A stretch of 61,758 nt of DNA, counting the filler, from Ionaspis alba (lineage: Eukaryota): assembly GCA_964255285.1 (NCBI GenBank). It is 10 parts of 10 records of this genome, joined end to end, with 100 filler letters (N's around TTAATTAATTAA, not from the genome) between each part and the next. Parts side by side here need not be neighbours in the genome. Positions count along the whole stretch, not along the records: positions 1 to 6,115 come from CAXUUL010000947.1; 9 more parts are not named here. One strand, written 5' to 3'. Below are positions 1 through 55,539 of the stretch, one piece after another; the first letter of the stretch is position 1; every line of letters begins with the position of its first letter. The notes beneath the pieces are model-generated. The model made no database searches, was not told the DNA's origin, and was given only the letters and a program-made list of their open reading frames with translations. A program made the position numbers and the translations under genes.

Positions 1-2291
1 GCGCGTTCCTCGCTGGCGATGACGCCGACGAGACCACCGGGTGGGAGGGCGGAAGCGGGTGATGGACCGCCGTAGACGGAGGGGGAGGCGGCCATGTTTT
101 CGCGGTTGGAGGGGTTGACGATGCTGGCGCCGAAGTAAGGATCTTTGGGGAGATTACGCGCGAAAGGGGGAAGCGAGCCACGGGGGCCGGTGCCGGCGAC
201 AGAGCCAGGTGCGATGGATGGAGGGGTGGGGTAAGCTTCGCTTTGGTAGCGGATGTTGGAGGCGGAAGACATGCGATTCAGGGCTGAGGGGGTGCGGTCT
301 TTGTTCGGGAAGCCGTGGGCGGCGAGGATGCCGAGGGGGATGTCGTCGTCTTCGTCGGAGGAGCTTTTGCCGCTTGAGCTCAGCTTGCTGGGGTCGTGAG
401 GGGGGTTGAGCAGAGAGAGGCGGGAGGTGAGGTCGGGGGTGCTTTGGCTGGTGCGGTTGAAGTTGGGACGGGAGCCAGGGGTGGGTAGGTCCGAGGGTTG
501 TTCGCCGGTGACTTTCATCATTCTTTGGCGGTAGACGGAGAGGCCGGCTTCTTGCTTGCGGCGTTGTTTGGTGATTTGTTTGATGCGCTCGGCTTCGTCG
601 TCGTCTTCGTCGCCGCCGCTGCCGTCGTCGGATTGGGCGCTTTTGGACGCGTTGCTCCAGCTTCGGGAGATTTCTTGTTGGCGCTTGTATTGCTCGAATT
701 GGGCTGGTGTCATCACTTTTCCTGATGTTGGTCTGTTGGCCGGTAGGATGTCTCCAATTTGGTATCGATGTGCTGATAGCGCCAAATCTCGAAACGAAAG
801 ATCATCGAGCATAGAGTCATCCGCAGCTGGTCCGCCTGTCTTTTTCGCTCGAGGAGTGGTATCGAGAGACTCTGCGCGCCAATTGCTCAGACTGTCTGTA
901 TCTCCATCATCACCATGGTTGAGTTTTATAGAGGGTTGGGCAACCGATATTTGGGAACTTTCTTGCGCCAAAGGTTTCCGAGGTATGGAGGGAACTCTAG
1001 TATGCTTCGGAGGGGCCTTCGAAGCCTTGTCAAGTCTTCGACTGGCTTTGATGGATTCCATCACCAAAGCAGAATCCGCATCCGAGAGTGGCGTTGAATT
1101 CCGATTGGCAGCACTACCTCTTCGAAGCGCAGATTCCGGCCGTTGTAGCCTCGTTTGGCTCGACGGACTATCAAATTGCCTGCTAGGAGGTCCGGACTGA
1201 TCTTCATAGCCAAAACCTCCTTGCTCTAAACGAGGACTACTGTTGTCCATCAACCCATCCTGCGAAGTATGACTATAGTTGGAATGTGGTGAGTCAATGA
1301 GAGGTCGCGTTCGATCGAAACCGAGTGGAGGTGGTGTATAAGGTAAGTGTTTGTTCAAGTAAGGAGATACGCCATTGGGTCCACTAGAATGGTTCTAGTA
1401 ACTTGGTATTAGTGGTCTTCTGCGTACAAGTCAATTGCCATCTATCACTCACCATGTCCTCTACAGCAAAGGATTCCGGACTCCTAGAAACCGCGCTTCG
1501 AGAAGTTCCAATGCCTGCAAACATATCCCCAAATCCGTCTCGATCGTCCGAGGGCCCAAAACCCAAGTCTGTGTCTAACAGTTTCGGTGGTGTTGCCGTA
1601 CTCGCACTCGCATAGCTTGTTTCTGTCAAAGCCCTTGGTCTCGAAACGTAGGCTGGATCTGGCGTGATGATAGGAGGTGTATTCTGACGTGGTGAAGGCG
1701 TTGCAGGAGCAACTTTTCGAGCTGGCTCGGCAAGCTGTGCTGCTTGCGCTGCCTGAGTTGCTTTTCTCCCAAACGAGAATGCTCGGTTCGAACGAGAGAA
1801 GAAGCTGGATTGAGTAGCGGGTATAGGTGGGATGGGAAGACTGTGTGTCTGCTTTGGATGTGCGTGAGGAGAATGGTCTGGACTTTCTTCGACGGATGAG
1901 GATGAAGGTAATGTCGAGGACGAGCTGAACCGCGCTGAAGCTGACGAATTATCGTTTTGGGTACCACTCGAAGAGGAATTATGCGTGCCTCCACTACCGC
2001 TAAAAGAATCAGTACAATGCACATGCCAGATGCCTCCAAGTCCTCTCACCGATTATTAAGACTTGGACCCGGCCGGCCGAGATCGAAAGATTTGTTCTCA
2101 AGATTCTGTCCCTCGCTCAACGGCCGTCCCTGGCTCAGGCGCTTTAAGCTATTTCCTCCATCAAAAGACTTGCTTCCGTTTGGTGGGCGCTCGAAAACGC
2201 GGAATGATGGCTGTGGTGGATTCTGCACCTCTTCTAAAGCGTTCCCGGATGACTTCCGACGAGGGAAGCCTTTTGGTAATTTGATCGGCAT
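1..2291 (-). CDS. Conserved fungal Ser/Pro-rich hypothetical protein, multi-exon, 3' end runs off the window
   Basis: ATG at 2291 gives MPIKLPKGFPRRKSSGNALEEV. GTGAG donors near 2049 and 1453 with matching AG acceptors near 1999 and 1384. Low-complexity coding-like sequence continues to base 1. Confidence 0.7.
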
Positions 2292-4066: not shown

Positions 4067-5363
4067 ATGCGGTCCTCATCTGCATATCTTATTCCGTGCT
4101 GTACATTATTACTGCTTGCAACTCAATGGCTTCAATTATCCACAGCCACTTCCCCGCATGATCAACAGCAGCCATTAGACCATCACCACCAACCCTCCGA
4201 GCATGACAAACCTACTAACCTCTCAAGCCCACTCTTCGTCCTCCACCGGGACCTCATCAAAATCGAATCCATCTCCGGCAACGAGCACGCCGTGGGCAAA
4301 TACCTCTCCGACTACCTCACCGGCCACAACTTTACCGTCGACAGACAAGAAGTCGAGCCCTTGAAATCAAAACCAAAACACAATTCTCCCCAACTTATAT
4401 CTCCCCCCTCACCCCGCTGGAACATCCTCGCCTACCACGGCTCCTCTCGCAAAAGCCGCGTTCTGGTCTCAAGTCACATCGACACCGTCCCGCCCTTCCA
4501 CCCTTACGATGTCCGCCCCGGCAACGACATCTGGGGCCGCGGCAGCGTCGACGCCAAAGGCTGCGTCGCCACACAAATAATCGCCGTCTCAGAGCTACTC
4601 GCCTCCAACGAAATCATCGATGGCGACGTCGCCTTACTCTTCGTCGTGGGCGAAGAAATCGGCGGCGACGGAATGCGCAAAGCCAACTCCTTGGGCCTGT
4701 CCTGGGAAACCGTCATCTTCGGGGAGCCGACGGAACTGAAACTAGCATCGGGCCACAAGGGGGCGTTTGCGTTCTCTGTTGGTGCGAAGGGGAAGGCCGG
4801 TCATAGCGGCTATCCGTGGTTGGGGGAGAGTGCGAATTCGATGCTGATACCGGCGCTGGCGGTGCTGGATAAGTTGGAACTGCCGGGATCGGAGAAGTAT
4901 GGGAATACGACGGTGAATATTGGGAGGATGGAGGGCGGGGTGGCGGGGAATGTGATTGCGGAGGAGGCGAGTGCGCAGATTCAGATGCGCTTGGCTTCGG
5001 GGACGGCGGAGGAGGCGAAGAAGGCGGTTGTTGAGGCGGTGGGGGAGGTTGATGAGAGGCTGGAGTTGGAGTTCTTGTCGAGGGGGTACGGGCCTGTGGA
5101 TATTGATAGTGATGTTGAGGGTAGGGAAAATTGCTTGTCCCCTTTTTTGGTGTCCTTACTGAGAACCTTTTCTAGGCTTTGAAAAGATCGTCGTCAATTA
5201 CGGAACGGACATTCCAAACCTCGACGGAGACCACAAGAGATATCTTTACGGTCCAGGCTCCATTCTCGTTGCTCATTCTGACCACGAGCATGTACTCGCC
5301 CGTGATCTTGAAGAGGCAGTGGAAGGATATAAAAAATTGATTCGAGCCGCTCTTAAAAGATAG
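4067..5363 (+). CDS. Secreted/vacuolar M20-family metallopeptidase (ArgE/DapE-like carboxypeptidase)
   Basis: Signal-like N-terminus. Motifs [40 protein letters not shown]. Intron 5121-5175, then exon NYGTDIPNL...[16 protein letters not shown] to TAG at 5361-5363. Confidence 0.92.
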
Positions 5364-5441
5364 TGGGGCTGATAGGCTGCATATAACACATCTATGTCAG
5401 AAAGGACAATCTGTGTCCGATCTCTGGAGCTCTACAAGTAT

Positions 5442-6115
5442 TCAACGATCTTTCCCCGTCAGATCTCTACACAGCGGACTCTCACCAATCTCCTCAAATC
5501 CCCTCGCCCACCACAACCTCTTCTCCTTACCTTTCACTGCCTCCTCACTAAACCTCCCAATCCATTCACACGGCACACCCACCCTCTCCAAACACTCCAA
5601 ACACTCCCTCTGCCCACTCCCCATCTCATGACCTCTAATACAAATCCCCACATCAACAGCCAACAATGCCTCTAAGTCCGTGACACTATCCCCCACAAAG
5701 ACACTAAAACCAGTTCTCCTACCCTCTCCTCGCTCTTCTACAGTAGGATCAGAAAGCTCATCCCTCACAATCCTCGCCTTATCCCCCGCCGTCCATATCC
5801 CCTTCTCCCCAAAGAACCTGCCCAATCCACCAGCACTACCTTCCGCATCATCCAGTCCCTCGATCTCATTAGCAAAGATCTTGATCTTATCCAAATCCCC
5901 CATTTCCAAGCATTTCTCTGCAGACTGATCTCCTGCATACTCCCTTCCTTCCAAGCCCCCTTCATCCTCTGCTCTAATACCCAACTCCACATCCGCCCTC
6001 ATACAAGCCCCAATCCACTCCGCCGACCAATTCACACTCACAACCCCCACCTCCCCGCCATTCCCAAGCACGCTCCCAACAAGTCCTTGCCAGCCATCTC
6101 TAAACACCACATCCC
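5442..6115 (-). CDS. HAD-superfamily hydrolase (Cto1/thiamine-phosphate-phosphatase-like), 5'-truncated at scaffold end
   Basis: VVSVNWSAEWI, ANEIEG and FVGDSVTDLEALLAVDVGICI (HAD motif IV) in ORF 5442..6110. Motif I is missing beyond the linker. Confidence 0.8.
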
Positions 6116-6215
6116 NNNNNNNNNNNNNNNNNNNNNNNNNNNNNNNNNNNNNNNNNNNNTTAATTAATTAANNNNNNNNNNNNNNNNNNNNNNNNNNNNN
6201 NNNNNNNNNNNNNNN
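6116..6215. other. Artificial scaffold-joining linker (N44-TTAATTAATTAA-N44); identical linkers at 12325-12424, 18527-18626, 24717-24816, 30903-31002, 37086-37185, 43262-43361, 49437-49536, 55602-55701
   Basis: 100-nt spacer whose 12-mer gives stop codons in all six frames. Intervening segment lengths fall monotonically from 6115 to 6057 bp. Confidence 0.98.
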
Positions 6216-6257
6216 GAGGATGGGTTTGGCGTGCGGGGAGGTGGGGTGGGGTGCCAT
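6216..6257 (-). CDS. Possible first codons of an unidentified gene running off the scaffold edge
   Basis: ATG at 6257 (MAPHPTSPHAKPIL) preceded by a C/A-rich leader typical of fungal 5' UTRs. Too short to identify. Confidence 0.35.
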
Positions 6258-7947
6258 TGGGATGGTGATGGCGGTGGTTATCGGGTGTTTTGCGGTTGTG
6301 GGTGATTTGTGGCTGGTGGTTGGCGACAGCGTTGTGAATCGAGGCTTTGATGGATACGAGAGTCGTTGAACAACGCGTTTGCTTTCCTTGAGAGGAGATT
6401 GTGGCTGGCCTGGCGTGGTTGAGTTGTAAAGACGCAGTGGTTGTGGGAGGCAGTGAGAGCGGAGGAAGAAAGAGCGCAGCGAAGGCGAGGAAGAGAGAGA
6501 TAACAATTAGCAACTAAGGCAGTTATTATATGCAACACTCTTGACCCGAGACAAAAGTATGAGTGTCGATGTTGCGCTGTTTTGAGTCGATGTTAGAAAT
6601 CAAGTATGTTGGTGCGAGTGTAGCTCAAACAGCAACAACAACAAGTTCCTGTCAGAGATAAAAAGGCAGAGCGAGTCCTTCCTTTCTTATTCGAAGGAGG
6701 GGCTGTCGGGGTGAAACGTGCGCGAGCTGGGAAAGAGCGAGAGCGTTGTTGGCACGTTGTTTTAGCTCCACTAACGAGCAGCAGCTGAACGACCTTCCAG
6801 GGAGTGCCAGGCCCTGTTCCCCGCTTCGGAACCTCTACACCGACTGGCCTCTCGCTTTCCCTCGTTCCATAGAGCAGGCATCTCTCAACACGGGCTGCAA
6901 GCTGCTGCAAGCTCCTGCAGCTCGTGTGATTTGGCTCTCTCGCTGACTGGTCGGATGGAGACCGCGATGTGCTGGACCGGCATGTGCGTGCGCTACAGGG
7001 AGGCTCTTGGTCCAATCTCGCCCTCTGGGAACGCCATTCCTTCTGCCCTAGCCGTCGAGGGAACGAGAGGGAATTTCCGCTTTGGCGAGATTGGGATGCG
7101 TCAGACGGTGAGCTGAGACGGTGAGTTCGCCGACCAACGAGAGTGGCTCGTTTAGGCGAGTCGGGTGCTTGCTATAGTGAGCCAGATGACAAGACTTGGC
7201 TCGTGTGGTAAGGACTAGGACTAGTGTCATGTCATGCCTGGAAATAGAAACCACGTTGTTGTTATTGGCGTTGCCGGAGATTGGGGATGAAGGATCGAGG
7301 GGATCGCGCCTTGTGGGAATACGGACGTAGATTGTGAACGGTAATAATGAGGGAGAAAGTGGGGGCAACTCCAAGACGTCAGATGCGTTTCAGAGTGAGG
7401 GTACCAACAGTTTTGGCACATGGCCATCCCATTCTTATTTGTCCTCGCATACACAAATAGATCCATGCTTCCAACTGCCACGGTTGACAAGAGGACCCCA
7501 CATTTGCAATTACTAAGATACTCAGTCTCCCGGCTCGTCTTCCAGATCGCTCGTCTCAGAATTGGGCATCGCCACGTTTGGGATCAAAATATGGAGAAAT
7601 CTTCAGACTGTTGAATGATCGGTCTGTTGTTGCCCAGTGTCATTTAAGGCACAATAATGCCTCATGGTTTCAAGCTGGTAGGAGCACACTGCCAAGTGTC
7701 TACTCCTAGATATGTAGATCATGCCTCAGAATGGTAGACGTGATGGGATCTTGGAGTTGGATTTATGGGGTGACATNNNNNNNNNNNNNNNNNNNNNNNN
7801 NNNNNNNNNNNNNNNNNNNNNNNNNNNNNNNNNNNNNNNNNNNNNNNNNNNNNNNNNNNNNNNNNNNNNNNNNNNNAATTATGAATGATAACAGACGGGA
7901 CGAACATATATGGATTAAACTCGAAGCGACAAAACAGCTTCCCTCAA

Positions 7948-9402
7948 CTACCTCGAAGCCGTATCATTCTGCCGCCTTCCCCCCACTCGTCTGATAGCTT
8001 CCCTGATAACCGAAGCCGCGATATCAGGCACCCCTCTCCCGCCACCCTCATCCCTCGCCAACACGTATCGTGTGGGAGCCTCCATCAATCCAGGCCAGAT
8101 ATCGACCGGCAAGAAATCCCCCTGTTCCAGCCGAAACGCCTCTCTCTCGGCTACATCTTCACTTCTCAAGGCCTCGATCTTACTCAAAGCGTCCTGCGCC
8201 ACCTTTGCCATCTTCACCTCCATGGCTTTCCGCCGCCCGACTTCGATAATCAGGTTGTCGTAGGCGGAGAGGAATCCGACATAGAAGTGGCAGACGCTGT
8301 CGAGCTCGGTCATGCGGTCTTCGATTTTGGCTTTTTCTTCGTCCCAGCGGAGCAGGAAGATGTGGCTTTGCGTGATGTAGGATGGCAGCTTGTTTCCCAC
8401 TTCTTCCAACATTTTGAATGCGGTGTTGTTCCTGGCGAGCTCGTCGGAGAGGCGGTCGCTGTGCTCACTCACTCGTTCGTAGTCGGCTTCCATTTCGGTG
8501 CTCCGATCGCGGATTTCCATGACTACTTCCTCGACTTCGCTGGCGTCTTTTTCCAGTATGGCTAACATGTCTTGCTTTTCTTCCTCGCTCATTGGCTCAA
8601 GCGACATGTCGCTCTTGTCCAGGCCTAAATCCATATCTTCGGGCAAATCGCTTGTGACTTTCCGAGCTGCGGCGCCTCCTCCCTCGGTGTGTTTGATAGC
8701 CGTGACACAAACATCGAAATGCTTGACGAGACTTTCTAGATTGTCCGCCATCTCTTGTGCTCGCTCCTCCATCCTATGTAGAATATGAGGGATCGGAGAC
8801 TGTAGCCCTTCTCCCGGATCGTCGAAAGTCGTCTTTCCTGCTTTTGACCCAAGCATGCTTCGTATGTTGGAGACCTCATCCTCCAGTGCCTGGTTTGATT
8901 CCGAATAGACCTTCGTAGCGTCCTGCGTAGCATCAATGCTCTCCTTTATTGTCCCAAGCAAATTCCCAACGCCTGTCTCGTCCAGAAAGTCAGCCAAACT
9001 TCTACCAGGCTCGCCTTCTGGCCTAAGACTGGACTCAATCATCGTGGCTCTTAATTGGTCCAGTGTCTTGTTCAGCTTTGTGTCCGCGGCGTCTAGGTCA
9101 TCGACGACTGCCTGGAACTCCTTGTTGACTTCTTGCGCTATACTCTGATTTTGGTTCTGGACACGATCGAGGATCTGTACTTGTGCCTGACAACCATGTT
9201 GGAGGAAGATGATGCGAGCTGTGGTTATGATGTGGGATTCAAGCGCCTGCCGTGTATTGTTCACAATATCGTTAGCTCGATAGACTTGCTCGACACAAGA
9301 CAGTGATCGCTTTGCTGCTAGTAGATGTGTGACCAATGTATCAAGGGACGGCGAGGAGGGATGAGCTTCGTCGGAATGCAGACTTGAGGTTGACGAGGCC
9401 AT
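7948..9402 (-). CDS. atg17: Autophagy-related protein 17
   Basis: 484-aa coiled-coil ORF with LVTHLLAAKRSLS, MADNLESLVKHFDVCVTAIKHTEGG, AYDNLIIEVGRR and QGDFLPVDIWPGL, typical of filamentous-fungal Atg17. Confidence 0.92.
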   Translation of the reverse strand: MASSTSSLHSDEAHPSSPSLDTLVTHLLAAKRSLSCVEQVYRANDIVNNTRQALESHIITTARIIFLQHGCQAQVQILDRVQNQNQSIAQEVNKEFQAVVDDLDAADTKLNKTLDQLRATMIESSLRPEGEPGRSLADFLDETGVGNLLGTIKESIDATQDATKVYSESNQALEDEVSNIRSMLGSKAGKTTFDDPGEGLQSPIPHILHRMEERAQEMADNLESLVKHFDVCVTAIKHTEGGGAAARKVTSDLPEDMDLGLDKSDMSLEPMSEEEKQDMLAILEKDASEVEEVVMEIRDRSTEMEADYERVSEHSDRLSDELARNNTAFKMLEEVGNKLPSYITQSHIFLLRWDEEKAKIEDRMTELDSVCHFYVGFLSAYDNLIIEVGRRKAMEVKMAKVAQDALSKIEALRSEDVAEREAFRLEQGDFLPVDIWPGLMEAPTRYVLARDEGGGRGVPDIAASVIREAIRRVGGRRQNDTASR

Positions 9403-12312: not shown

Positions 12313-12424
12313 TTGGCCTGGCTCNNNNNNNNNNNNNNNNNNNNNNNNNNNNNNNNNNNNNNNNNNNNTTAATTAATTAANNNNNNNNNNNNNNNNNNNN
12401 NNNNNNNNNNNNNNNNNNNNNNNN

Positions 12425-18526: not shown

Positions 18527-18626
18527 NNNNNNNNNNNNNNNNNNNNNNNNNNNNNNNNNNNNNNNNNNNNTTAATTAATTAANNNNNNNNNNNNNNNNNN
18601 NNNNNNNNNNNNNNNNNNNNNNNNNN

Positions 18627-24816: not shown

Positions 24817-25206
24817 CGCACCGCCTTCCGTCCCACCTCCGGCCAAACTCCGTACGCCAAGCGCGCCGCCCTCACAGCAAGCATAAACGCAACAAAAGCA
24901 AAAGAGAAGGAAATGAAAGACGAGAAAGAAGAGGAACGGACAGTACGCTCCCATTCCCTCTCCCCCTTGCCAAACCTCTCCTCTAGCCCCCTTCAGAATT
25001 ATCAATTGCAGGGACTCTGCGTCGTGGTCAGGGAGCTAGCGTGCTGATGCCCGTTCTATGCATAGAAACGGATCCAAGCAATCAAAGATAAGCGCGCCGC
25101 TAAAGAGGAGAAAGAGAGGTTTGAGAAGATGGCGGAGAAGATGCATAGGAAGAGGGTTGAGAGGGTAAGGAGGAGGGAGAAGAGGAATAAGTTGTTGAAG
25201 AGTTGA
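24817..25206 (+). CDS. cgr1: rRNA-processing protein Cgr1, 5'-truncated
   Basis: Not in the ORF track. Read manually: [14 protein letters not shown]...[16 protein letters not shown], intron 24943-25065, then [46 protein letters not shown]. Confidence 0.9.
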
Positions 25207-26329
25207 GACATTGATTGATTGGGTGATGAATGTGATGGGACAGGCTCGGAAGAATGCAAGATAGAGCATGCGACTGGGATGTGGGCTATGGAAGCGAGAT
25301 AGAGGAGAGGATGAGGTGAGTGACAGGGCAGGAGGAGTAAAGAAGGGGTGGAAAGAGTGGCAGAGGATGCATGAACGAAGGCGTAAAGGTGCATCTTCTT
25401 CTTTTGATAACCATTGGCTGAGGGAAAGGCCAACGACTCTGCACCTCCTGTTCCAAGAGAAAAAAACGTTGCTAAGGCTGCAATGGCTTGCATCTACGTG
25501 CAGACAACACCTGCACACCACCGGAGGTAGCTCCGGCCCAAACCAAAGCCCCTCACTGGCAATCACGCCATACAACCCCCGAGCAAGCCGGCTGATCTGC
25601 GGGTTGACTGTGCAGGACCCAAGCAAAACCCCCATTCAGATACTCAAGTTCACCGTACTCGGCGACACCCAGATTCCTATTGATAATGGCATTCGATGGG
25701 ACCGATAAGAGAAAGAAATTCATACATTTCCAGAACCGATATCTACACCATTCTTTTGCCCTACTCCTTTGTTTGATATCACCATCCGCCCATTACGCCC
25801 TCCTCAATGCCATGAATTCCCCAATCCACTCTGAATCTCAGCTCTCGACGAACAACGGTTCCATCGAGCAGGGTCTGCAATATGTCTGCATTTATCCCAC
25901 ACCTTATATAAAAGTCCCCTTCATGCCCCCAAAGCCACTTCCTGTGCTATGTAGCTCGCTCTCTGCCCTAAGCCTCTAGCACATGTAGAGATCACCTCCA
26001 AGACCCCGCAGCCGTAGCCTGGCTCATCTTAAAGCAATCCCCCTCTGAATAGACCTCAGGAAGCAGATCTATGAACAAACCCCTTGATATCCATAGAATC
26101 GGAGAAGAAGAAAAAAATCAACCCGATCCCCCACGCCCCCATGTAAGCCGTGAGGCACCTTTTGCTTTTCTTGATCGAGGAAACATAAATAAACGCCGTC
26201 GTTGAAAACGATCAAAGAGCCGTGACACGNNNNNNNNNNNNNNNNNNNNNNNNNNNNNNNNNNNNNNNNNNNNNNNNNNNNNNNNNNNNNNNNNNNNNNN
26301 NNNNNNNNNNNNNNNNNNNNNNNNNNNNN

Positions 26330-28077
26330 GCCGCCACCACATCGTCCTCATCCTCCTCATACGGCATGAACATCCCCGACGGCGTTCTCCGCAACCCTCT
26401 CTCTTCCATTTCATCGTCGTCGTAATCTTGAGTCGTCGTCGTCGTCGTCGTCGTCAAGGAATCGCTCATCCGCGACTGGTGGATGAAAATGCTATCTCTC
26501 CTCCCTGTCGAAGAGGAAGACGATGATGAAGGCTGCCAGCTGAGATCGGCGTCGTCGTCTTCGTCGTCGAGGAGGAAGTTGCTGGACGGTTTGGACGGCT
26601 TGATCGTTTCCTGCGAGGGGGAGGTCACAAGACGGGCAGCTGCGTTCCACAGCCCTCCCCGTTTCGGGGACTGATCGGGAGGTTCGGGAGTATCGCCTCT
26701 GTACTTGAGAGTGGTGGATGGCAACATAGCGATGGTTTTGCTGTCCGAGCTGAAGCTCGAGCGGGGGGTGTTGCGGTTGCTGAGCTTACGCTCTTTGCCG
26801 TGGACGGCTTTCATCATGATGATGCCGTCGTCGGAGGAGGAGTCGGAGTCGTCTTGGATGGCGGAGGAGTCGTCTTCGTGGTCGTCGGGGTCTTTGTTGA
26901 TGGCTATGCATTGCTCCACTTTGTCGTTGAAGTGGATGTGTCGTCTTTCGCTCGGGGTTTGCACCCCCGAGGAGGAGGACGAGGGCAGGGCTGAGGAGAG
27001 GCCCGTCGCGCCGTCGCTGGGGGTTAGGGGGCTGGAGGCGGCGGGGAAGTCGGAATAGGTGCGGCTTTCGAGGACGGGGCGGATGCGCAGGCCTTGGGTG
27101 GGTCCTTGGGCTCGGAGGGCGTCGGTGGCTTGTTTCATGAGGGTTGAGGAGGAGAGGGAGCGTTGGAGCATGATTTCTGAGAGGCTGCGTTTTTTGAGGA
27201 TGGGTTTCTTGGTGACGAAGGAGTTGGTTCGCGAGAGCTGACTCGCGGGTGGAGAGGAATCTGAGTCGAAGTGTCTGGTGTTTCCTGTTTGGAGGGGCCC
27301 GTACAGCCAAGTGACATCGTGATCTTTCATCCTGTTTTGTGGGGTCAGTGAATGGTTCAAATCAAGAGTCAGGTATCGATCTCACCAGTTCAGAGTCTCC
27401 GGTGAAACAGTTTTCAACCGGTACTTTGACTTGGTCCACGATCTCCAAGACGCGTTTTCAAGACGTGAACTGTTGCTGTACACATTTCGTTTTGCAACAA
27501 TGTGTCTCCACGAAGACCATATATCCTCTTCTCTCCAATTGTGTGAAAGGTAGTCCACATGCCTCGACGGTTCTCTTCTGATTGCTGTGTCGTCCCCACC
27601 CAATGGCTGAGTATCGGGTGGCTCAATGGCTAGGGGTTTGGACGCCGTTGTGGGACTCGTATTTATGTTGACTGGTTCCTCGTCTGATGGTGCAGTATCG
27701 GGCGTAGGAGGAGGATTGGGTAGATCAGCAGGAGTGTGACTGTCGTCGTACGATGGGAATATTATGTCGTCTTCGTTTTCCTCGTTTTCCGAGCATTCGT
27801 CCAGTGACAAGCTACTCGAGGGTGTTGAGGTGTAGGATGGCTGATTGGAGAAGTCTGGATGGCTGAATCGTGGAGAGGAAGGTGCAGAGGAGGGTACTGA
27901 GGCTGGGAGTCTGATGTCGTATCCGATGTGAGAATAGGCCGACGACCTGACATTCGGTGTTGATCTCGAGTATGAATTTTGATTGAGGAAGGATGTTGAG
28001 GAGGCGGATCGTCGTAGGCCATTGCTTGAGCCAAAAGAACCCTCAGGTTGTGTAGAAATCGTGAGCACCTCTGTCAT
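26330..28077 (-). CDS. reg1: Protein phosphatase 1 regulatory subunit Reg1/Hex2; extreme C-terminus in N gap
   Basis: RHVDYLSHNWREEDIWSSWR, RLENASWRSW, VSPETLNW|MKDHDVTWLYGPL, KPILKKRSLSEIML, PP1-docking RHIHFNDKVEQCIA, GLRRTPSGMFMPYEE. Confidence 0.92.
26431..26455 (+). repeat. (GTC)n trinucleotide microsatellite encoding a poly-Thr tract in Reg1
   Basis: gtcgtcgtcgtcgtcgtcgtcgtc; SLTTTTTTTTQD in the translation. Confidence 0.85.
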
Positions 28078-31002: not shown

Positions 31003-32055
31003 CTCCCTCCCCCTCAAATCCTCCAACAACCCCACCTGCGCCTCAAAATCCGGCTCAAAGAAAAACGGTACACTAACCCTCATCCCCGGCCCCCGGTGCA
31101 CAACCCTATGCCTCGTACTCCTCCACAATCCACCCGTCCAGCGCTCCATCATATCCCCGATATTGACCACAAAAGCCCCTGGTATCGGGTCCGCGTTAAG
31201 CCAGATGTCTGGGTCGGGACGCGATTGTACTTGCAGGGCTCCCGGCGTGGGGTCAGCGAGGAGGAGGGTTAGACAGCCGTAGTCTGTGTGGGCGCCGCAG
31301 GAGATGGCTTCGTCGTTGGTGAAGGAGTCACCGTTGGCGGTGGTGGCGGTTGATGAAGAGGGGAGAGGAGGATAGCCGATCGCGCGCATGACCCAGAAGC
31401 TTTCGCGGGTTGCGGCGACGAAGGTTTCGGGGTCGGAGAGATTGAGCGCGTGGCCCATGGCGCGGACGACGGCTGTACCGAGGCTGAGCATGTGTGTTAT
31501 GTAGACTTCGTAGACAGCTTTGAAGGCGGTGGGGTGGGAGGGCCAGAGGTTTATGCCGTGGAGGATGGGGAATGGCGGGGAGCGCGACGGTGGGGGTTTG
31601 GTTGTGCCGTTGGTGAGTCCATTGGGCTTCCGTGGTTCTTGCACTGTAGCAGGTGCTGGTTTCGAGGATTGGAAATCACTGTCTAGAAGCCCCTCTCCAT
31701 CGACGATAGGCCGGTACCAGTCAATGGCTTCGTGCCAATCCCGCTTGCCCTGTGTCACGTTATCGCCGACGACTTGGTAGCCACGAGCGCCGTCGCCTTG
31801 GTCTTTGCCTGCATCTTTGCGGGCGATGAGCGCTTTCTGTGAAGGTGGGCAGTTGGCGAAGAAATCGCGGGCGAGGGAAAGGACGTGGTCGGTTAGAGCT
31901 TGGGGGACGTTGTGATTTGTGAGGTAGAAGAAACCGTGGTTGATGCAGGCGGAGGAGAGCGAGTCGGTGCAGGTTTTGAGGGCGGTAGGAGAAGAGGAAG
32001 TAGTTAGGAAGGGGGAGATGTCGATTAGGGGGAGGTTTGGAGTTGTAGCTGACAT
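31003..32055 (-). CDS. 2-oxoglutarate/Fe(II)-dependent dioxygenase (IPNS-like, DIOX_N + 2OG-FeII_Oxy), 3' end truncated
   Basis: LPLIDISPF, GFFYLTNH, ARGYQ..DWHEAID, HTDYGCLTLL, VVNIGDMMERWTGG..STRHRV, RVSVPFFFEP. Confidence 0.92.
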
Positions 32056-32319
32056 GGCTGATAGATAGGGTGGTAGTGAGGCTTGGGGAGGGGAGAATAA
32101 GCGAGATATACAATCCGCTACGGACTAGGGCAAGATACAACTATCTTTTGATTATCTAACCAAACTTGCGGCACAAGCAAGGAGTACTTTCAGTTTTTAC
32201 GGCCAGAGATTATCGTAGCAATTCAATCCCCAGGATGCCTCCGTCTATCGCTTTTGGAGATTCAGACTCGCTAAATGCACAACGACCAAAGTTGAGGACA
32301 GCCAATGCCAATGACAACT

Positions 32320-37085: not shown

Positions 37086-37185
37086 NNNNNNNNNNNNNNN
37101 NNNNNNNNNNNNNNNNNNNNNNNNNNNNNTTAATTAATTAANNNNNNNNNNNNNNNNNNNNNNNNNNNNNNNNNNNNNNNNNNNN

Positions 37186-42803: not shown

Positions 42804-43261
42804 ATGTCGTCTCCTAAGCCACTTCGCTACGCCATCGGCAGCGACTCCGCCGGTCACTCCTACAAGACCGCCCTCCACGAGCATCTCTCCTCCCAACCAC
42901 TCGTTTCCTCTGTGACTGACGTCGGCGTTCCCTCGACCTCAGACTCAACAGCATACCCACACGTCGCCATCAACGCCGGCAAACTGATAGCAGATGGCAA
43001 GGTCGACCGCGCCCTCCTTATTTGCGGTACTGGCCTAGGCGTAGCCATCAGCGCCAACAAAGTCCCGGGTATAAGAGCGGTTACGGCACATGATCCGTAC
43101 AGTGTGGAAAAGAGCGTGACGAGCAACAATGCGCAGGTTCTTTGTATGGGAGAGAGGGTGGTGGGGCTGGAACTTGCGAAGAAGCTTGTCGGGGATTGGG
43201 TGGGACATCGGTTTGATGAGGGGAGTGCGAGTGCAGAGAAAGTGGAGATTATCAATGAGCA
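42804..43261 (+). CDS. rpiB: Ribose-5-phosphate isomerase B (RpiB/LacAB family), last codons missing
   Basis: [58 protein letters not shown]. Confidence 0.93.
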
Positions 43262-43370
43262 NNNNNNNNNNNNNNNNNNNNNNNNNNNNNNNNNNNNNNN
43301 NNNNNTTAATTAATTAANNNNNNNNNNNNNNNNNNNNNNNNNNNNNNNNNNNNNNNNNNNNCTCCTCCCC

Positions 43371-44184
43371 CTACAAAACCACCACAGCCCCCCCCACAAC
43401 CGCCAAAACCCCACTCCCAACCCTCACACCCACAGCAGCATTCGTCGTCGGCGCACTCGACGCACTCGACGTCCCACTCGCCCTCGTCGACGTCGAAGCC
43501 CTACTACTCGTCCCCGACGCCGTCGCCGTCCCCGACGTACTAGCCGCGCTACTCGGCGACCCCGACGCCGTCGTCGTCACCGTAGTACCCGATGTCGCCG
43601 TACTATCTGTCGCCGTCGTGCTATCGCTGGTGGTAGCGGTGCTATCCGTTGAAGCGGCGGCGCTGGTGGTCTCGGTTGCGGTTGTGGCGGCGCTGGATCC
43701 GGAGGATGAGACGCTGGGGACGGCTTTGACGGGCGAGAGGATGTCGAATTGCGGCGTGTAGTTTACTTTGCTCGGGTCTTGGTCGTCGGTTATTTGGATG
43801 GTGTAGGAGTTGCCTTCGACGATGTCGCTGGGGGGCGTGTAGGTGTAGGAGCCGGTGTTGGGGAGGTTGGCTGTTGAGGAGGTTAGTGGGACAGTTTCAG
43901 AGGACGGAAAAGGGTGGAGGTGGTATATGACGAGTGTAGTGTGAGGAAGGGAGGGAGCCAGCCATACCTTTGATCACGGTCCCCGCATTCAGCGCACCAT
44001 TCGATCCATCCCTTAGAGTCAACGTCACAGTGCTGCCCGCCGGATTCGACCACTTGAACGTTGTCGGTTGACCGGCTTTGAGCAGATACCCCTCGGGTGG
44101 GATATCGAAAGCATTGGGTTTGACGTCCGCAGCAGAGACGAGAGCCAAGAAGGCGGAGAGCGCAAGGGTAAATGATATGCGCAT
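43371..44184 (-). CDS. Ser/Thr-rich GPI-anchored cell-wall protein (Kre9/Knh1-like N-terminal domain), 2 exons
   Basis: Signal peptide, NAFDIP..AGQPTTFKWSN..TVTLTLRDG, intron, NTGSYTYTPP..YTIQITD..VNYTPQF, S/T-rich stalk, hydrophobic C-terminus. Confidence 0.87.
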
Positions 44185-45286
44185 TTTTTTTATGTTGGTG
44201 AGAAATTATGTATACAAGTGGAGGAGGATACCGAGTCAAGTAAGTATGTGCAAGTAAAGAGTAATGTGCGTACGTATGTAATGTGGCACAGTCGTGAAAA
44301 GCGACGATATACAGCCTCAACGAAAGTGACTCGAAGAAGTAGAAGAAGGAACAACTACACAAGAAAACCACCGATTGCAACCGTAACGAACGTGCGTATT
44401 TCTCTCTCCAGGGTAAGAACTATGTACGTGGAAGATGGAGGAAAGTAGGACAAAAGGGAAAGGAAGCGGAAAAGAAATCACGACCGTCGCACGAAGGTTT
44501 GGGACGCCCCCCCATTCTTTTCTTTTCTCTGTTTCCGCCGCGCAATATGGATGCTACACTACTACCGCGAACTAACTTCTTTCCTTCGTGCCAATATCGG
44601 AGCTGAGAGATCTGGAGAAGCCGCAGAGTTGAGGGGGGAAGGGGGAAGGTCCGGCCGATGCACCGAGAGCCAATCAGAAGGCAGGAATTGGTATACCCTT
44701 GTCGGAATTGGGAGGGTGGATTGCGTGTAATTTGCAGTTTTGGGATTGGGGCGGTAGTTTTTGGTGGTGGCGATTTGGGGATACGGATGGCTCTTTTGGA
44801 TGGGAAGGTTAGTTTCCATTATTGAAGGAAAATTGATCGATCGTTCTTTGTTTGTTTCGCGTGGGTGGCAAATGTCATGCTATCGAATGTTGTCAATGGA
44901 AAAGTTGAGGTGTGTATACAGCACGAGGGGAATCCCAGACGGTATAGATCCTATCGGGAAGGAACACGACGTGAAGCAGAGGATTTACATCCATCACAAT
45001 CCTGAGAATAGTATACCAGCAATCGAATCTTCCTCAAATCAGATTCGTCTACTTTGATTTTCTTTTCTTCACCTCCAAATTATGTAAATACACCGAGATC
45101 TCCGCTCCAGACAAAGCCGAATATCCGGCGCATATACCCTACTCATCCCACAGCAAAGGTACCCCAAGCTCGCAAATCCCCCAGTTGCTTTGAACATGTA
45201 GAAACCCCGTGAAACCATCCTATGGCTCATGGACAGGAACATCAAAATCGTGTGTTGTCAGAATATTACTACACCCTCTCTCTTCC

Positions 45287-46255
45287 CTAGTTCAAGTACA
45301 CCATAGCCACAAACACACACCCCAACAAAGCAAGTGGGCTTCCCATACGAACAGCACTGCCCGTCGTAGTCGCCGACGCGCTAGCAGATCCAGTCGACGA
45401 GCCACCAGCCTTGGTGGTAGGTGTGACCACGATCCCAGTCGTCAACGGTCCGCTCGAGCTGGCAGTCAAGCTCTGCGAAACGAACGTAGTGTTTCTCGCA
45501 ACAGAGATACCGGTTCCCGAAGCAGAAGCACCGAGGGTGGTGGTGAATTCGGTAGCCGAGACGGATGTCAGTGTCGTGTTGCTGGAAACAATCAGCACGC
45601 TTTCGGTCGTTGTGGTCGCGGCTTCGGTGGATGAGGAGCCGATGGTGGTGGTCACGATGGCCGGCGCGGTCGTGCTGATCGTGACGGTGGAGGTTGCCGT
45701 TCCGGAGGCGGAGGATGAACCGGAGGAGGATGAACCGGATGCGGCGCCGCCAGTTAGGGAGAAGGGGCCGTAGTAGTTGACATTGGCGTTGCCTTGGGAG
45801 ATTTGTAGGGCGTAGTCGTCGGCGTTGGGGAGTGATTTGGAGGGCGTCCAGGTGAAGGAGTTGCCTACTGTGTTGCCTGTGGGATTTCAGTCAGCTCGAG
45901 CTCTTTCTTTGCTCTGTATAATACGATTGCGAAACCCAATGGCCAGCGCCTTGAGATTTCTTGTAGTGGAACAGAGAGATTGGCCTTACCAGTGATGATT
46001 GAAACAGTTTGCAGATTGGCAGCATTGCCCTTCCTCAACGTGATGGTAACAGGCTAAGAAGCACGGTCAGCCTTCTGCTCCAAGATTACGACACGCGCGG
46101 ATACTCACGGATGATCCATCACCACCGGACCACTTGAGCTCAGTAGGAGTACCAGCAGTTACAGAGGTAGGAGCTTGCGTGAAACCAATCTTGCTCTGAG
46201 CGACAACTGCAGCGACGAACGAAGCGCACACGAAGAAAGCTTTGGAGAAATGCAT
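45287..46255 (-). CDS. Second Ser/Thr-rich GPI-anchored protein of the same family, 3 exons
   Basis: Signal peptide, FTQAPTSVTAGTPTELKWSGG, VTITLRKG, SFTWTPSKSLPNADDYALQISQG..NYYGPF, S/T stalk, GPI-type tail GSPLALLGCVFVAMVYLN*. Confidence 0.87.
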
Positions 46256-49436: not shown

Positions 49437-49908
49437 NNNNNNNNNNNNNNNNNNNNNNNNNNNNNNNNNNNNNNNNNNNNTTAATTAATTAANNNNNNNN
49501 NNNNNNNNNNNNNNNNNNNNNNNNNNNNNNNNNNNNGTCATGGTGGGTTTGGATATCAGTCCTCCTATGGCTGCTCGCAGGTTGCAGTGAAACTGGTCGA
49601 GGAGGCATTGAGTGCACGGGCGGAGCTTTAATGATGTGATCCGCTAGCCTTATACTTTTGTTGATAGTGAGATATGTTTGGAAATTGAGGTAGGGTTAGC
49701 AATGATAGTCCTTGTCATTCACTGTTAATCTTGGGAATCCAATTTCATTCTGTCTTGATCCTCACAGTTCCAATACGTCGCTTTTGTTCCTGCTCCGGGA
49801 AACAAACTATGCACGCGCGACATATTACTCAAACCAGCTAGCACAACCCGTCCATCAACCTCGCCTAATGGCCCATCACACCCGCCACCACCTCTTCCAC
49901 CACACCAC

Positions 49909-55000: not shown

Positions 55001-55539
55001 GAGTGACGCTGAGGGTAATCTGATGGTGCTTCATCAGAACACCAATGGAGTAACCTTCGAAGATCGGCGGAGGTTGGAAGTCACGAGTGAGATCCAGCTG
55101 GGCGAGATGGTGAATCGAATACGGAGGGTCAATGTCCCTACTTCTGTGAACGCGACGGTGGTGCCGAGGGCGTTCATGGCTACGGTGCGTCTCCCCTTCC
55201 CGCCCCACTCCCTTCCATCACAAACTGACACCCTTACAGGTCGAAGGCTCCATCTACCTCTTCGCTCTCATCCGCCCTTCCAAACAAGACCTCCTCATGC
55301 GGCTGCAATCCGCCATCGCTGCTTTCGTGCACAGTCCGGGGAATATCCCGTTCAATAAGTTCCGCGCGTTCAAGAACGAGGTCAGGGAAGCGGAAGAACC
55401 GTATCGGTTTGTGGATGGGGAATTGATTGAGAAGTTCTTGGATGTGGAGGCGGGGATGCAGGAGGAGATTGTGAAGGGGTTGGGGGTTGAGGTCGAGGAG
55501 GTGAGGGCGATGGTGGAGGGGTTGAGGCATTTGCATTAG
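52024..55539 (+). CDS. ddb1: DNA damage-binding protein 1 (CUL4 adaptor), 4 exons
   Basis: MAYIAPIHRPSSVRHA, FVGSHQGDSQ, NIAPILDF, GQARIVTGSGAFQDGSLRSVRSGVG, FVVGTAY, ADIMKSVS, RFVDGELIEKFLD, ends VEGLRHLH*. Confidence 0.96.

What the first reader, a model, noticed from the sequence alone, without database searches (positions are those of the whole stretch)
4150..5130. Recurrent mirror-image strand-skew domains (C/A-rich arm then G/T-rich arm), independent of gene orientation
Seen by eye: inside the M20 peptidase CDS the + strand is strongly C-rich to about 4730 (codons ending in C), then abruptly G/T-rich (GGG/GAG/GTG/GCG codons). The same C-then-G polarity recurs at roughly 24820-25380, 25800-27260, 31003-32100, 42800-43260, 43362-43950, 45100-45900, 49830-50640 and 54700-55600. 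It occurs in + strand genes (M20, rpiB, cgr1, ddb1) and - strand genes (2OG dioxygenase, GH125, GPI proteins, reg1), and through introns and UTRs. Because C-then-G reads the same on both strands, it is not a simple transcription or amino-acid effect. Inference: a strand-asymmetric mutation/repair process radiates both ways from fixed centres about 1 kb wide, strongly enough to rewrite synonymous sites. Candidates are replication origins (G+T excess on the leading strand has this polarity) or double-strand-break/recombination hotspots with resected ssDNA. The accessory segments (P450 pair, HeLo-like genes) largely lack it. I cannot tell whether this has been described for this lineage.
Basis: partly seen in the sequence, partly recalled or inferred. 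Interest (0 to 1): 0.72.

Follow-up and report, generated by a model that had tools for sequence, protein, structure and literature searches.

The report
Gene-anchored C-to-G strand skew, fungal genes
Many genes of this fungus switch from C/A-ending to G/T-ending codons towards their 3' end, which is a very strong case of a gene-level strand bias already described in fungi and not a sign of replication origins or recombination centres.

Summary
All nine listed places run C-rich then G-rich on the + strand. Skew reaches -0.80 to +0.85 per 200 nt, against none at or beyond 0.6 in 200 shuffles. It sits mainly at third codon positions, survives synonymous-codon shuffling, and continues through introns and 3' UTRs. 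An independent assembly of run X1 reproduces it.

C-then-G is its own reverse complement. It therefore equals "coding strand C-rich 5', G-rich 3'" for genes on either strand, as published for about 64 fungi (McLean & Tirosh 2011, PMC3315797).

Three results tie it to the sense direction. The G arm is anchored at the stop codon and 3' UTR in 92 unrelated genes of other fungi. C-type blocks outnumber G-type blocks 44 to 17. Third-position skew resets to C after introns. The ten switch points share no motif. The DDB1 pattern recurs at the same positions in orthologues of 42-67% identity.

The "window" is ten unlinked contigs of about 6.1 kb joined by linkers. Earlier notes of this scan describe similar sawtooths in a bacterium and in giant viruses. 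The cause remains unknown.

The parts
4140..4700 (+). M20 peptidase exon 1, C/A arm (coding strand C-rich)
   Evidence: p3 skew -0.74 and -0.83 in codons 59-174
4730..5110 (+). M20 exon 1, G/T arm. It stops at the exon 1/intron junction; the intron and the last exon (5176-5363) are unskewed
   Evidence: p3 +0.76, +0.86; intron +0.21
5445..6113 (-). HAD-like gene, 3' part: G/T arm on its coding strand, cut by the contig end. The 'HAD-like' label is my own reading of the translation; Pfam gave no hit
   Evidence: p3 +0.61 to +1.00; p1 +0.64 to +0.87; Pfam found no family
3..700 (-). Unnamed ORF (geneA), C/A arm on its coding strand, cut by the contig start
   Evidence: p3 -0.71 to -0.87 in codons 233-464
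6216..6500 (-). First codons and 5' leader of a - strand gene, C-rich on its coding strand
   Evidence: 6258-6500: skew -0.56. The start codon was read by eye
7914..8200 (-). ATG17 gene, weak G arm at its 3' end
   Evidence: last 61 codons p3 +0.53
24819..25429 (+). CGR1-like gene: C arm (exon 1 and the start of the intron), then G arm (last exon plus about 220 nt of 3' UTR). The G arm is G+A-rich.
25430..27300 (-). ORF 26329-27381 and its downstream region: C arm 26506-27300, G-rich (sense) 25430-26505, interrupted by a 100-N gap
   Evidence: p3 -0.87 to +0.48 along the ORF
31003..32105 (-). 2OG-Fe(II) dioxygenase: C arm 31180-32105, G arm 31003-31179, cut by the contig start
   Evidence: (p3 -0.83 to -0.72, then +0.77)
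42830..43261 (+). rpiB: C arm to 43066, G arm 43067-43261, cut by the contig end
   Evidence: p3 -0.68 then +0.66. The synonymous shuffle was not significant
43362..43968 (-). Kre9/KNH-domain Ser/Thr-rich protein 1: intron and C arm 43615-43968, G arm 43362-43614. Exon 1 (43975-44195) is unskewed
   Evidence: p3 -0.74, -0.38, +0.96; intron -0.60
44983..45890 (-). Kre9/KNH-domain protein 2: C arm 45411-45890, G arm 44983-45410 (last codons plus about 300 nt of 3' UTR)
   Evidence: UTR +0.38
49824..51173 (-). GH125 alpha-mannosidase: C arm 50179-51173 including a C-rich intron near 50542-50592; G arm 49824-50178 including 85 nt of 3' UTR
   Evidence: p3 -0.91 then +1.00; reproduced by a Logan contig of X1
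54754..55601 (+). DDB1 3' part: two C-to-G cycles, in exon b (54754-55187) and in exon c plus 3' UTR (55241-55601). The first 850 codons (52157-54706) are unskewed
   Evidence: position conserved in orthologues

Best explanation
These are not centres on the chromosome. They are the gene-level strand bias of fungal transcription units.

What is shown. On the coding strand, the 5' and middle part of an affected gene is driven towards C, then A. It is stripped of G and T at free sites. The last few hundred nucleotides, including the 3' UTR, are driven towards G, then T, and stripped of C and A. The bias acts on DNA or pre-mRNA, not on codons, because introns and UTRs carry it. It is ongoing and old, because silent sites of orthologues at 42-67% protein identity show it at the same positions. 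It is set by transcript structure: anchored at the stop codon and 3' UTR, and reset to C after introns.

What is inferred about the mechanism. The same damage spectrum hits the template strand in the C arm and the coding strand in the G arm. On the 'G strand', two-fold sites show C-to-T and A-to-G each favoured about 4:1. Four-fold sites show an extra pull towards G itself. This is what single-strand exposure (deamination, base loss) would give in an organism that inserts C opposite abasic sites (Rev1/Pol zeta in yeast). R-loop-prone 3' ends would expose the coding strand. Why the template strand is the one hit in the 5' and middle part is not explained.
For: Sense-direction anchoring.
- In every window gene with a Pfam-supported strand and strong skew, the order in the sense direction is C then G, with the G arm at or near the 3' end.
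- In 92 conserved non-DDB1 genes from other fungal lineages, p3 skew is -0.2 to -0.5 more than 100 codons before the stop. It rises to +0.13 in the last 20 codons and in the first 60 nt after the stop. In 23 DDB1 orthologues the last 20 codons reach +0.70.
- The window's coding segments hold 44 C-type against 17 G-type blocks of 40 codons, out of 218.

Intron reset.
- 79 motif-predicted introns: p3 is C 0.43-0.45 and G 0.19 in the first 20 codons after the intron, against C 0.25-0.27 and G 0.28-0.29 in the last 20 codons before it. The change is negative in 61 of 74.
- Non-DDB1 introns alone: 40 of 51 negative.
- Scrambled-signal control: 11 of 36 negative.
- In DDB1, the C tract after intron 2 averages -0.40 in 17 lineages that have the intron and -0.14 in 10 that lack it.

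Not codon-level: introns and UTRs share the skew of their arm.

Not an amino-acid effect: the synonymous shuffles, and the flip from ACC/TCC/GCC to ACG/TCG/GCG inside one uniform Ser/Thr/Ala-rich tract of Kre9-1 (read by eye).

Spectrum.
- Four-fold sites, C-type blocks: C .62, A .16, T .14, G .08.
- Four-fold sites, G-type blocks: G .61, T .21, A .11, C .07.
- Four-fold sites, other blocks: about .25 each.
- Two-fold Y-ending codons: C .79 in C-type blocks, T .83 in G-type blocks.
- Two-fold R-ending codons: A .78 in C-type blocks, G .80 in G-type blocks.

Young singleton changes in close relatives (clusters c15 and c7 pooled), written on the G-rich strand: A>G 64 against T>C 40 per 1000 sites; T>G 30 against A>C 18; C>G 15 against G>C 9.

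Spread and conservation.
- 29 of 59 fungal metagenome loci hold at least one 200-nt window with |skew| >= 0.6.
- The DDB1 3' pattern is conserved in position.
- It is also conserved at p3: exon c codons 31-98 have skew >= +0.23 in 38 of 44 loci, or 21 of 27 lineage clusters.

Published precedent. PMC3315797 (parts 1-2 of 4 and term passages read) describes a coding strand that is C-biased 5' and G-biased 3', also at four-fold sites and in UTRs, in a set that includes Aspergillus, Neurospora and Fusarium.

Yeast C-insertion opposite abasic sites, with T>G on the non-transcribed strand raised when R-loops accumulate: PMC6063437 (passages read).
Against: Several window genes do not fit a simple transcript-end rule.
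- The 5' 2.5 kb of DDB1 is neutral, and its C arm starts only about 250 codons before the stop.
- The M20 G arm ends at an intron. Its last exon (188 nt) and its upstream 170 nt are unskewed.
- The HAD-like G arm stops exactly at the stop codon.

GMPP, usually a well-expressed housekeeping gene (my knowledge; no expression data here), is unskewed, while an M20 peptidase is saturated. McLean & Tirosh also found only R of about 0.07-0.1 with expression.

The young-change spectrum does not show C>T above G>A on the G strand (49 against 62 per 1000). Net flux there is out of G (96 out, 62 in). Counts are small: 252 changes, 225 of them from one cluster.

The homology-based intron test is not significant at family level: 13 of 20 families negative, Wilcoxon p = 0.15. 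The intron presence/absence comparison is confounded by phylogeny.

McLean & Tirosh report a flat AT skew along genes and similar effects at all codon positions. Here the T/A skew flips with the arms and p3 dominates.

Unchecked notes of this scan describe similar sawtooths in a bacterium and in giant viruses. If true, that argues against any Pol II- or intron-specific cause.

No TSS, poly(A) or RNA data were available.
Confidence: 0.72

Rival explanations
1. Selection on the RNA rather than mutation bias. Given the genetic code, the only third-position alphabets that cannot pair with themselves are {C,A} and, apart from wobble, {G,U}. Using one alphabet per stretch keeps the pre-mRNA locally unstructured after the cap and after splice sites. 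C may also be favoured as the cheaper nucleotide.
For: Local 120-nt folding is weaker than in synonymous shuffles for all four skewed genes tested (z +3.3, +4.3, +11.8, +4.3) and not for the two unskewed ones (z +1.2, +0.1). The pattern covers introns and UTRs, which are part of the pre-mRNA, and resets after introns. A nucleotide-cost model for skews in transcripts exists (PMC4844684, search listing and start of abstract only).
Against: Weaker local folding follows physically from any skew, so it does not show selection. Global folding is if anything stronger (z -0.6 to -2.2), because the two arms can pair with each other. About 95% bias at silent sites of ordinary enzymes, with none in GMPP, is hard to obtain by weak selection on structure. 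The arms are about twice as variable as neutral DNA in close relatives, not less.
Confidence: 0.12
2. Meiotic recombination. Breaks form in nucleosome-free DNA between genes, and in some introns. Resected 3' tails or asymmetric heteroduplex repair then skew the flanks (G/T-rich left of a break, C/A-rich right of it). Each exon or gene lying between two break sites would read C then G.
For: Arm lengths of 0.15-1 kb are of the order of yeast resection and conversion tracts (recalled). Effects vary from gene to gene without an obvious link to expression. GC is raised in skewed windows (Spearman 0.19). The arms are about twice as variable. The DDB1 exons show C-to-G cycles delimited by introns.
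Against: At introns only the downstream exon changes. The upstream exon is flat at about -0.05 in 55 non-DDB1 introns. The pattern is not mirror-symmetric in the sense direction: 44 against 17 blocks, and C-biased gene bodies. There is no GC-biased conversion signature: in C-type blocks R-ending two-fold codons prefer A (.78), and in G-type blocks Y-ending ones prefer T (.83). C>T is not in excess on the putative single-stranded strand.
Confidence: 0.08
3. Replication origins at each C-to-G switch, with the leading strand G/T-rich.
For: The polarity is that of a bacterial origin (established knowledge).
Against: At least ten strong switches lie in 61 kb, spread over ten unlinked contigs, with arms of only 0.15-1 kb. 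The switches lie inside coding exons, with no shared motif. The pattern follows transcript structure. It recurs at the same codon positions in orthologues of distant fungi.
Confidence: 0.02
4. Sequencing or assembly artefact at the ends of short contigs.
For: 10 of 20 terminal 200-nt windows of the contigs have |skew| >= 0.33, against 13.3% of 1079 interior windows (binomial p = 9e-5).
Against: Logan's own contig of run X1 (2218 nt, depth 55) carries the GH125 domain with 19 differences and no gaps. Another covers 54038-55601 with none and runs on past the contig end. X1 may be the source sample, so this tests the assembler and not the reads. Reading frames stay open and match Pfam families across the switches. 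The same pattern lies in the middle of long contigs of other fungi.
Confidence: 0.01

Closest known systems
Opposite GC skews at the 5' and 3' ends of genes in fungi (McLean & Tirosh 2011, BMC Genomics, PMC3315797; parts 1-2 of 4 and term passages read; supplementary figures not opened)
   Same: The coding strand is C-biased over the 5' end and most of the gene and G-biased in a short 3' region that extends into the UTR (their 'fourth group'). The bias is present at four-fold sites, shifts amino-acid usage, correlates only weakly with expression, and is seen in Aspergillus, Neurospora, Fusarium and other filamentous ascomycetes.
   Different: They report genome averages, a flat AT skew, and effects of similar size at all codon positions. 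Here single genes are close to saturated at p3 (for example G2 C43 A8 T0, then G36 C0 A1 T15, in GH125). The T/A skew flips with the arms, giving an amino versus keto pattern. Neighbouring genes are untouched, borders are sharp, and the skew resets after introns. Their text uses the word 'intron' once, in another context.
C>G skew around transcription and translation start sites in plants and some fungi (Fujimori et al. 2005, PMC555766; abstract read)
   Same: C excess on the coding strand at gene starts. It is seen here in the leader of the gene at 6216-6500.
   Different: That signal is a peak of about +/-100 nt at the start site. Here the C arm runs for hundreds of codons and is followed by a G arm. 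The M20 upstream region has no such peak.
Replication-associated strand asymmetry (bacterial chromosomes, vertebrate mitochondrial DNA; established knowledge, review PMC3269012 seen in listing only)
   Same: Amino versus keto skew at silent sites, of a magnitude otherwise known from mitochondrial DNA. The polarity switches sign at a point.
   Different: The scale is 0.15-1 kb instead of whole replichores. The position follows genes, stop codons and introns.
Transcription-associated mutagenesis through uracil and abasic sites with Rev1/Pol zeta inserting C (yeast; PMC6063437, passages read)
   Same: It predicts strand-specific gain of G on the strand that loses bases, stronger on the unpaired non-transcribed strand when R-loops persist. 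This fits the G arm and the 'towards G' excess among young changes.
   Different: It was shown on reporter genes in repair mutants, not as an evolutionary footprint. It does not explain why the template strand would be the target in the C arm.
Positive GC skew and R-loops at 3' ends of human genes (Ginno et al. 2013, recalled; not found or read here)
   Same: The non-template strand is G-rich at gene ends in compact gene neighbourhoods.
   Different: The human 5' ends are G-skewed and not C-skewed. No R-loop data exist for this fungus.

Membership tests
Fungal 5'-C / 3'-G gene skew (McLean & Tirosh 2011) | Coding strand C-biased towards the 5' end and G-biased at the 3' end | tested here: met
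   All strongly skewed window genes run C then G in the sense direction. The meta-gene of 92 other fungal genes rises from -0.2 to -0.5 up to +0.13 at the stop.
Fungal 5'-C / 3'-G gene skew (McLean & Tirosh 2011) | Present at synonymous (four-fold) sites | tested here: met
   four-fold sites are C .62 / G .08 in C-type blocks and G .61 / C .07 in G-type blocks; survives synonymous shuffling.
Fungal 5'-C / 3'-G gene skew (McLean & Tirosh 2011) | Extends beyond the coding region into UTRs and promoters | tested here: met
   3' UTRs of DDB1 (+1.00), GH125 (+0.71) and Kre9-2 (+0.38); leader at 6258-6500 (-0.56). Not seen upstream of M20 (+0.13) or in the HAD-like 3' UTR (+0.08).
Fungal 5'-C / 3'-G gene skew (McLean & Tirosh 2011) | AT skew flat and positive along genes | tested here: not met
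   A>T in C arms and T>=A in G arms. The two-fold site preferences flip together with the GC skew.
Fungal 5'-C / 3'-G gene skew (McLean & Tirosh 2011) | Shared by many fungal species | tested here: met
   seen in metagenome loci of 35 other lineage clusters. These carry no taxonomic labels.
Replication-origin skew switch | Skew domains on the scale of replicons, independent of gene structure, with an origin element at the switch | tested here: not met
   arms of 0.15-1 kb, with several switches per 6-kb contig; no shared motif; positions follow stop codons and introns.
Meiotic break hotspot with GC-biased gene conversion | G and C both favoured over A and T, with symmetric flanks around the break | tested here: not met
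   A is preferred at R-ending two-fold sites in C-type blocks, and T at Y-ending ones in G-type blocks; only the exon downstream of an intron changes.
R-loop-forming gene ends | RNA-DNA hybrids detected at the skewed region | not testable with these tools
   No DRIP or RNA data. Ten G4-like motifs were found in the window, some of them in the arms.

The most novel reading that the evidence does not exclude
The skew is a sawtooth written by transcript structure. Silent sites are reset to the {C,A} alphabet after the start of the transcript and after each intron. They flip to {G,T} in the last few hundred nucleotides.

The proposed cause is that the strand left unpaired and unrepaired during transcription changes from template to coding strand as the nascent RNA escapes cap- and spliceosome-bound packaging and forms R-loops. 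Base loss followed by insertion of C then turns any base on the exposed strand into G.

Silent-site skew would then be a fossil map of co-transcriptional RNA packaging and R-loops, readable from sequence alone.

The intron reset is not mentioned in PMC3315797. No paper listed by full-text searches describes it; only the top 4-20 hits of each were listed, and these searches were broad. Unchecked notes of this scan on a bacterium and on giant viruses would widen the phenomenon beyond eukaryotes and would then need another cause.
Probability: 0.2. Interest if true: 0.7.

Novelty: new member of a known kind. Interest (0 to 1): 0.38.

Why it matters
The core pattern has been in print since 2011 and still has no accepted cause. 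This window shows how extreme it can be in single genes: about 95-98% of third positions fall in one two-letter alphabet, a magnitude otherwise known from mitochondrial DNA.

The window and 735 kb of other fungal contigs add three constraints that any mechanism must meet:
- The bias is amino versus keto, with an extra pull towards one base, and is not GC-biased conversion.
- It sits at the same codon positions in distant orthologues.
- It resets after introns.

Practical consequences:
- Such blocks distort codon-usage statistics, GC3-based inference and substitution models.
- They create long spurious ORFs on both strands.
- They shift amino-acid composition.
- Here they coincide with contig breaks.

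Readers of raw sequence should not take them for origins or hotspots.

Tried and rejected
- Whole genome: none is held for this window, so no genome-wide switch map could be made.
- RNA evidence: no RNA holder was listed among 3 runs, so no TSS, poly(A) or expression data.
- Laying runs X2 and X3 (other organisms of the same study) gave only short pieces at about 80% likeness plus a few low-depth identical contigs. This was too little to polarise substitutions.
- The homology-based gene set from the loci found almost no partners for the window's other contigs; only DDB1 and two P450 pieces matched.
- The window part of the stop-anchored meta-gene crashed on an ORF that abuts an N gap and was not rerun. 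The window statements rest instead.
- Idea that amino-acid composition nucleates the arms: rejected. The flip occurs inside one uniform Ser/Thr/Ala tract of Kre9-1, and the pattern survives synonymous shuffles.
- Idea that poor repair of C.C mismatches in heteroduplex DNA drives C onto the invading strand: kept only inside the recombination rival. Its sign is not robustly predicted, and the two-fold-site data need transitions.
- Simple cytosine deamination of an exposed strand: insufficient. G is well above T at four-fold sites, and C>T is not above G>A among young changes.
- McLean & Tirosh's CTP-shortage idea (avoidance of C at 3' ends): it does not explain why A is avoided with C in G arms, or why G and T are both avoided in C arms.
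- Shared central motif: none.
- G4-like motifs: ten in the window, not followed up.
- Literature: searches were answered; two searches were rejected for term format.
Full report
**What the window is.** The 61,758 bases are not one stretch of chromosome. Nine spacers of the form N44-TTAATTAATTAA-N44 cut it into ten pieces of 6115, 6109, 6102, 6090, 6086, 6083, 6076, 6075, 6065 and 6057 nt. These are contigs of a fragmented assembly listed by falling length. Four further runs of 100 N are scaffold gaps. No whole genome is held. The genes are fungal, with short introns that carry a CTAAC branch site. Pfam hits include an M20 peptidase, ATG17, an F-box/WD40 protein, P450s, a 2OG dioxygenase, GDP-mannose pyrophosphorylase, rpiB, two Kre9/KNH-domain proteins, GH125 and DDB1.

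Inside M20 exon 1 the + strand goes from skew -0.51 (4300-4499) to +0.62 (4900-5099). Elsewhere 200-nt windows reach -0.80 (49901-50100) and +0.84 to +0.85 (50401-50600, 55401-55600). The spread of 200-nt skew is 0.231, against 0.128 in shuffles. No shuffle of 200 produced a window at |skew| >= 0.6, whereas 2.2% of the 583 real windows reach it.

**It is carried by third codon positions.**
- In GH125, 53 consecutive codons have third bases G2 C43 A8 T0. The last 52 codons have G36 C0 A1 T15.
- Permuting synonymous codons within each gene, with protein and codon pool kept, never reproduced the blockiness of M20, 2OG, GH125, Kre9-1, Kre9-2, ATG17 or DDB1 exons b and c in 1000 trials. Unskewed genes behaved like their shuffles. 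rpiB was not significant.
- Introns and UTRs lying in an arm share its skew: GH125 intron -0.87, DDB1 3' UTR with no C in 62 nt, GH125 3' UTR +0.71.

**It is not an assembler artefact.** Logan's own contigs of run X1 carry 49697-51914 with 19 differences and no gaps, and 54038-55601 with none. X1 may be the source sample, so this checks the assembler only. The same kind of block lies in the middle of long contigs of other fungi.

**Where the interpretation goes wrong.** A C-then-G pattern is its own reverse complement. For a gene on either strand it therefore means the same thing: coding strand C-rich first, G-rich last. In every strongly skewed gene whose strand is fixed by a Pfam match, that is the order. 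The G arm lies at or near the 3' end.

This is the pattern published by McLean & Tirosh (PMC3315797). [quoted passage not shown] It holds at four-fold sites too, and their data set includes Aspergillus, Neurospora, Fusarium and other filamentous ascomycetes.

**Tests of dependence on the sense direction.** Symmetry alone cannot separate a gene-anchored process from a symmetric one, so I looked for features that depend on the sense direction.
1. *Not mirror-symmetric.* The window's coding segments hold 44 C-type and 17 G-type blocks of 40 codons, out of 218. Overall sense p3 skew is -0.108.
2. *Anchored at the stop.* In 92 conserved genes other than DDB1, taken from 35 other fungal lineage clusters, p3 skew is -0.2 to -0.5 far upstream. 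It crosses zero about 50 codons before the stop. It is +0.13 in the last 20 codons and in the first 60 nt of the 3' flank, then falls again.
3. *Reset at introns.* At 79 introns predicted from splice and branch signals with open flanking frames, the exon before the intron has third bases G 0.28-0.29 and C 0.25-0.27 in its last 20 codons. The first 20 codons after it have G 0.19 and C 0.43-0.45.
   - The change is negative in 61 of 74 introns, and in 40 of 51 when DDB1 introns are left out.
   - A scrambled-signal control gives 11 of 36.
   - A homology-based set of 99 exon junctions agrees: 68 are negative, against a mean of +0.03 at 1612 internal control points. It is not significant when collapsed to 20 gene families (13 negative, p = 0.15).
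   - In DDB1, the C tract after the last intron averages -0.40 in 17 lineage clusters that have the intron and -0.14 in 10 that lack it. The G arm behind it is present in both, at +0.31 and +0.50. Phylogeny is not controlled in that comparison.
4. *No shared motif.* Ten switch points share no k-mer beyond what arm-wise shuffles give.

**Age and spread.** A scan of metagenome contigs with the unskewed first exon of DDB1 returned 59 loci (735 kb) at 42-67% protein identity.
- 29 of the 59 hold at least one 200-nt window with |skew| >= 0.6.
- The skew profile of the DDB1 3' end is almost superimposable across them.
- This holds at third positions alone, which must be saturated at this distance. 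Codons 31-98 of the last exon have skew >= +0.23 in 38 of 44 loci, or 21 of 27 clusters.
- The process is therefore old, still acting, and positioned by something conserved in the gene. It is not positioned by lineage-specific chromosomal centres.

**What kind of bias it is.**

| Site class | C-type blocks | G-type blocks | Other blocks |
|---|---|---|---|
| Two-fold, Y-ending | C .79 | T .83 | C .52 |
| Two-fold, R-ending | A .78 | G .80 | G .53 |
| Four-fold | C .62, A .16, T .14, G .08 | G .61, T .21, A .11, C .07 | about .25 each |

- At two-fold sites this is a pure amino (A,C) versus keto (G,T) transition bias of about 4:1. It flips between arms and does not favour G+C.
- GC-biased gene conversion is thereby excluded as the main force.
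- At four-fold sites there is an additional pull towards one base.
- Read on the G-rich strand of either arm: C-to-T and A-to-G are favoured, and everything tends towards G.
- Singleton differences among close relatives in two clusters of loci (252 changes in arms, 225 of them from one cluster) point the same way for A>G (64 against 40 per 1000), T>G (30 against 18) and C>G (15 against 9).
- They do not for C>T (49 against 62). They show net loss of G, and they show about twice the density of changes found outside the arms. These counts are small and come from other fungi.

**Mechanism (inference).**
- The spectrum is what one expects if one strand is more often unpaired or unrepaired, in an organism that bypasses abasic sites by inserting C.
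- Yeast does this with Rev1/Pol zeta. In yeast, T>G on the non-transcribed strand rises with transcription and with R-loop accumulation (PMC6063437, passages).
- This gives a ready account of the G arm at 3' ends.
- It may also account for the reset after introns, if spliceosome-bound nascent RNA cannot form R-loops. That idea comes from Bonnet et al. 2017, which I recall; I saw it only as a title cited by 55 papers.
- It does not explain why the template strand should be the target over the 5' and middle part.
- It does not explain why GMPP or the first 2.5 kb of DDB1 are untouched while an M20 peptidase is saturated.
- Selection for locally unstructured RNA is a live rival. The arms do fold less locally than synonymous shuffles (z +3.3 to +11.8), but that follows from any skew. 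The two arms can pair with each other.
- A recombination model with breaks at the G-to-C borders fits the polarity. It fails on the one-sided intron effect and on the two-fold-site preferences.
- Origins are excluded by scale, position and conservation.

**Verdict.**
- This is a real and visually dramatic feature, correctly described.
- It is an instance of a known, unexplained fungal gene-level skew, and not a set of origins or hotspots.
- New relative to the paper I read: the near-saturation in single genes, the amino/keto decomposition, the conservation at orthologous silent sites, and the reset after introns.
- I found no description of the intron reset in PMC3315797 or among the papers listed by searches. 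Only the top hits of these searches were listed, and the searches were broad, not exhaustive. I did not open that paper's supplementary figures.
- Earlier notes of this scan report similar C-to-G sawtooths in a Planctomycetota bacterium and in giant viruses, and kilobase amino/keto patches in an archaeon. I did not test them.

Noticed in passing
window 6116-6215, 12325-12424, 18527-18626, 24717-24816, 30903-31002, 37086-37185, 43262-43361, 49437-49536, 55602-55701: The window is a chain of ten contigs of 6115 down to 6057 nt, joined by 100-nt spacers (44 N, a 12-nt all-frame stop word, 44 N). Neighbouring pieces are not neighbours in the genome, so distances between features on different pieces mean nothing.
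   Followed up: yes
terminal 200 nt of each of the ten contigs: Contigs tend to end inside skewed blocks: 10 of 20 ends have |skew| >= 0.33, against 13.3% of interior windows (p = 9e-5). Logan's contig of run X1 runs on past the end at 55601, so the breaks look specific to the assembler.
   Followed up: partly
79 predicted introns in the window contigs and loci L001-L057 (for example window 55188-55240): Third-position skew resets to C-rich (C 0.43-0.45, G 0.19) for about 20-30 codons after an intron, while the exon before it is flat. The change is negative in 61 of 74 introns, against 11 of 36 in a scrambled control. In DDB1 the C tract goes with presence of the intron. I did not find this in print.
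   Followed up: partly
window 20113-20212 and flanks: The 100-N scaffold gap is flanked on both sides by the same 25-nt sequence. It is probably an unmerged overlap or a short tandem duplication inside the first P450 gene.
   Followed up: no
window 5361-5445: The M20 (+) and HAD-like (-) genes converge with only about 80 nt between their stop codons, so their 3' UTRs must overlap. This spacer and the last M20 exon are unskewed although both neighbours are saturated.
   Followed up: no
window 49697-51914: Logan's contig of run X1 differs from the window at 19 of 2218 positions with no gaps, while 54038-55601 is identical. This suggests allelic or strain variation within the sample, or a second close genotype.
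   Followed up: no
window 49770-54700 (run X2): Run X2, labelled as another organism of the same study, holds six contigs of 151-200 nt at depth 2-3.4. Four are identical to the window, one has 4 differences and one has 9. X2 also holds its own orthologue at about 80% likeness. This may be low-level carry-over or co-occurrence.
   Followed up: no
loci of cluster c15 (L023-L026, L029, L042): Skewed arms carry about twice as many singleton differences per site as the rest of the loci: 225 in 1563 sites against 1317 in 18559.
   Followed up: partly
loci L004, L006, L015 (DDB1, between the exon b and exon c homologues): The last DDB1 intron is 51 nt long and has no in-frame stop in these lineages, so the gene reads as one uninterrupted ORF although the intron is there. 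ORF continuity alone would miscall it as intron-less.
   Followed up: no
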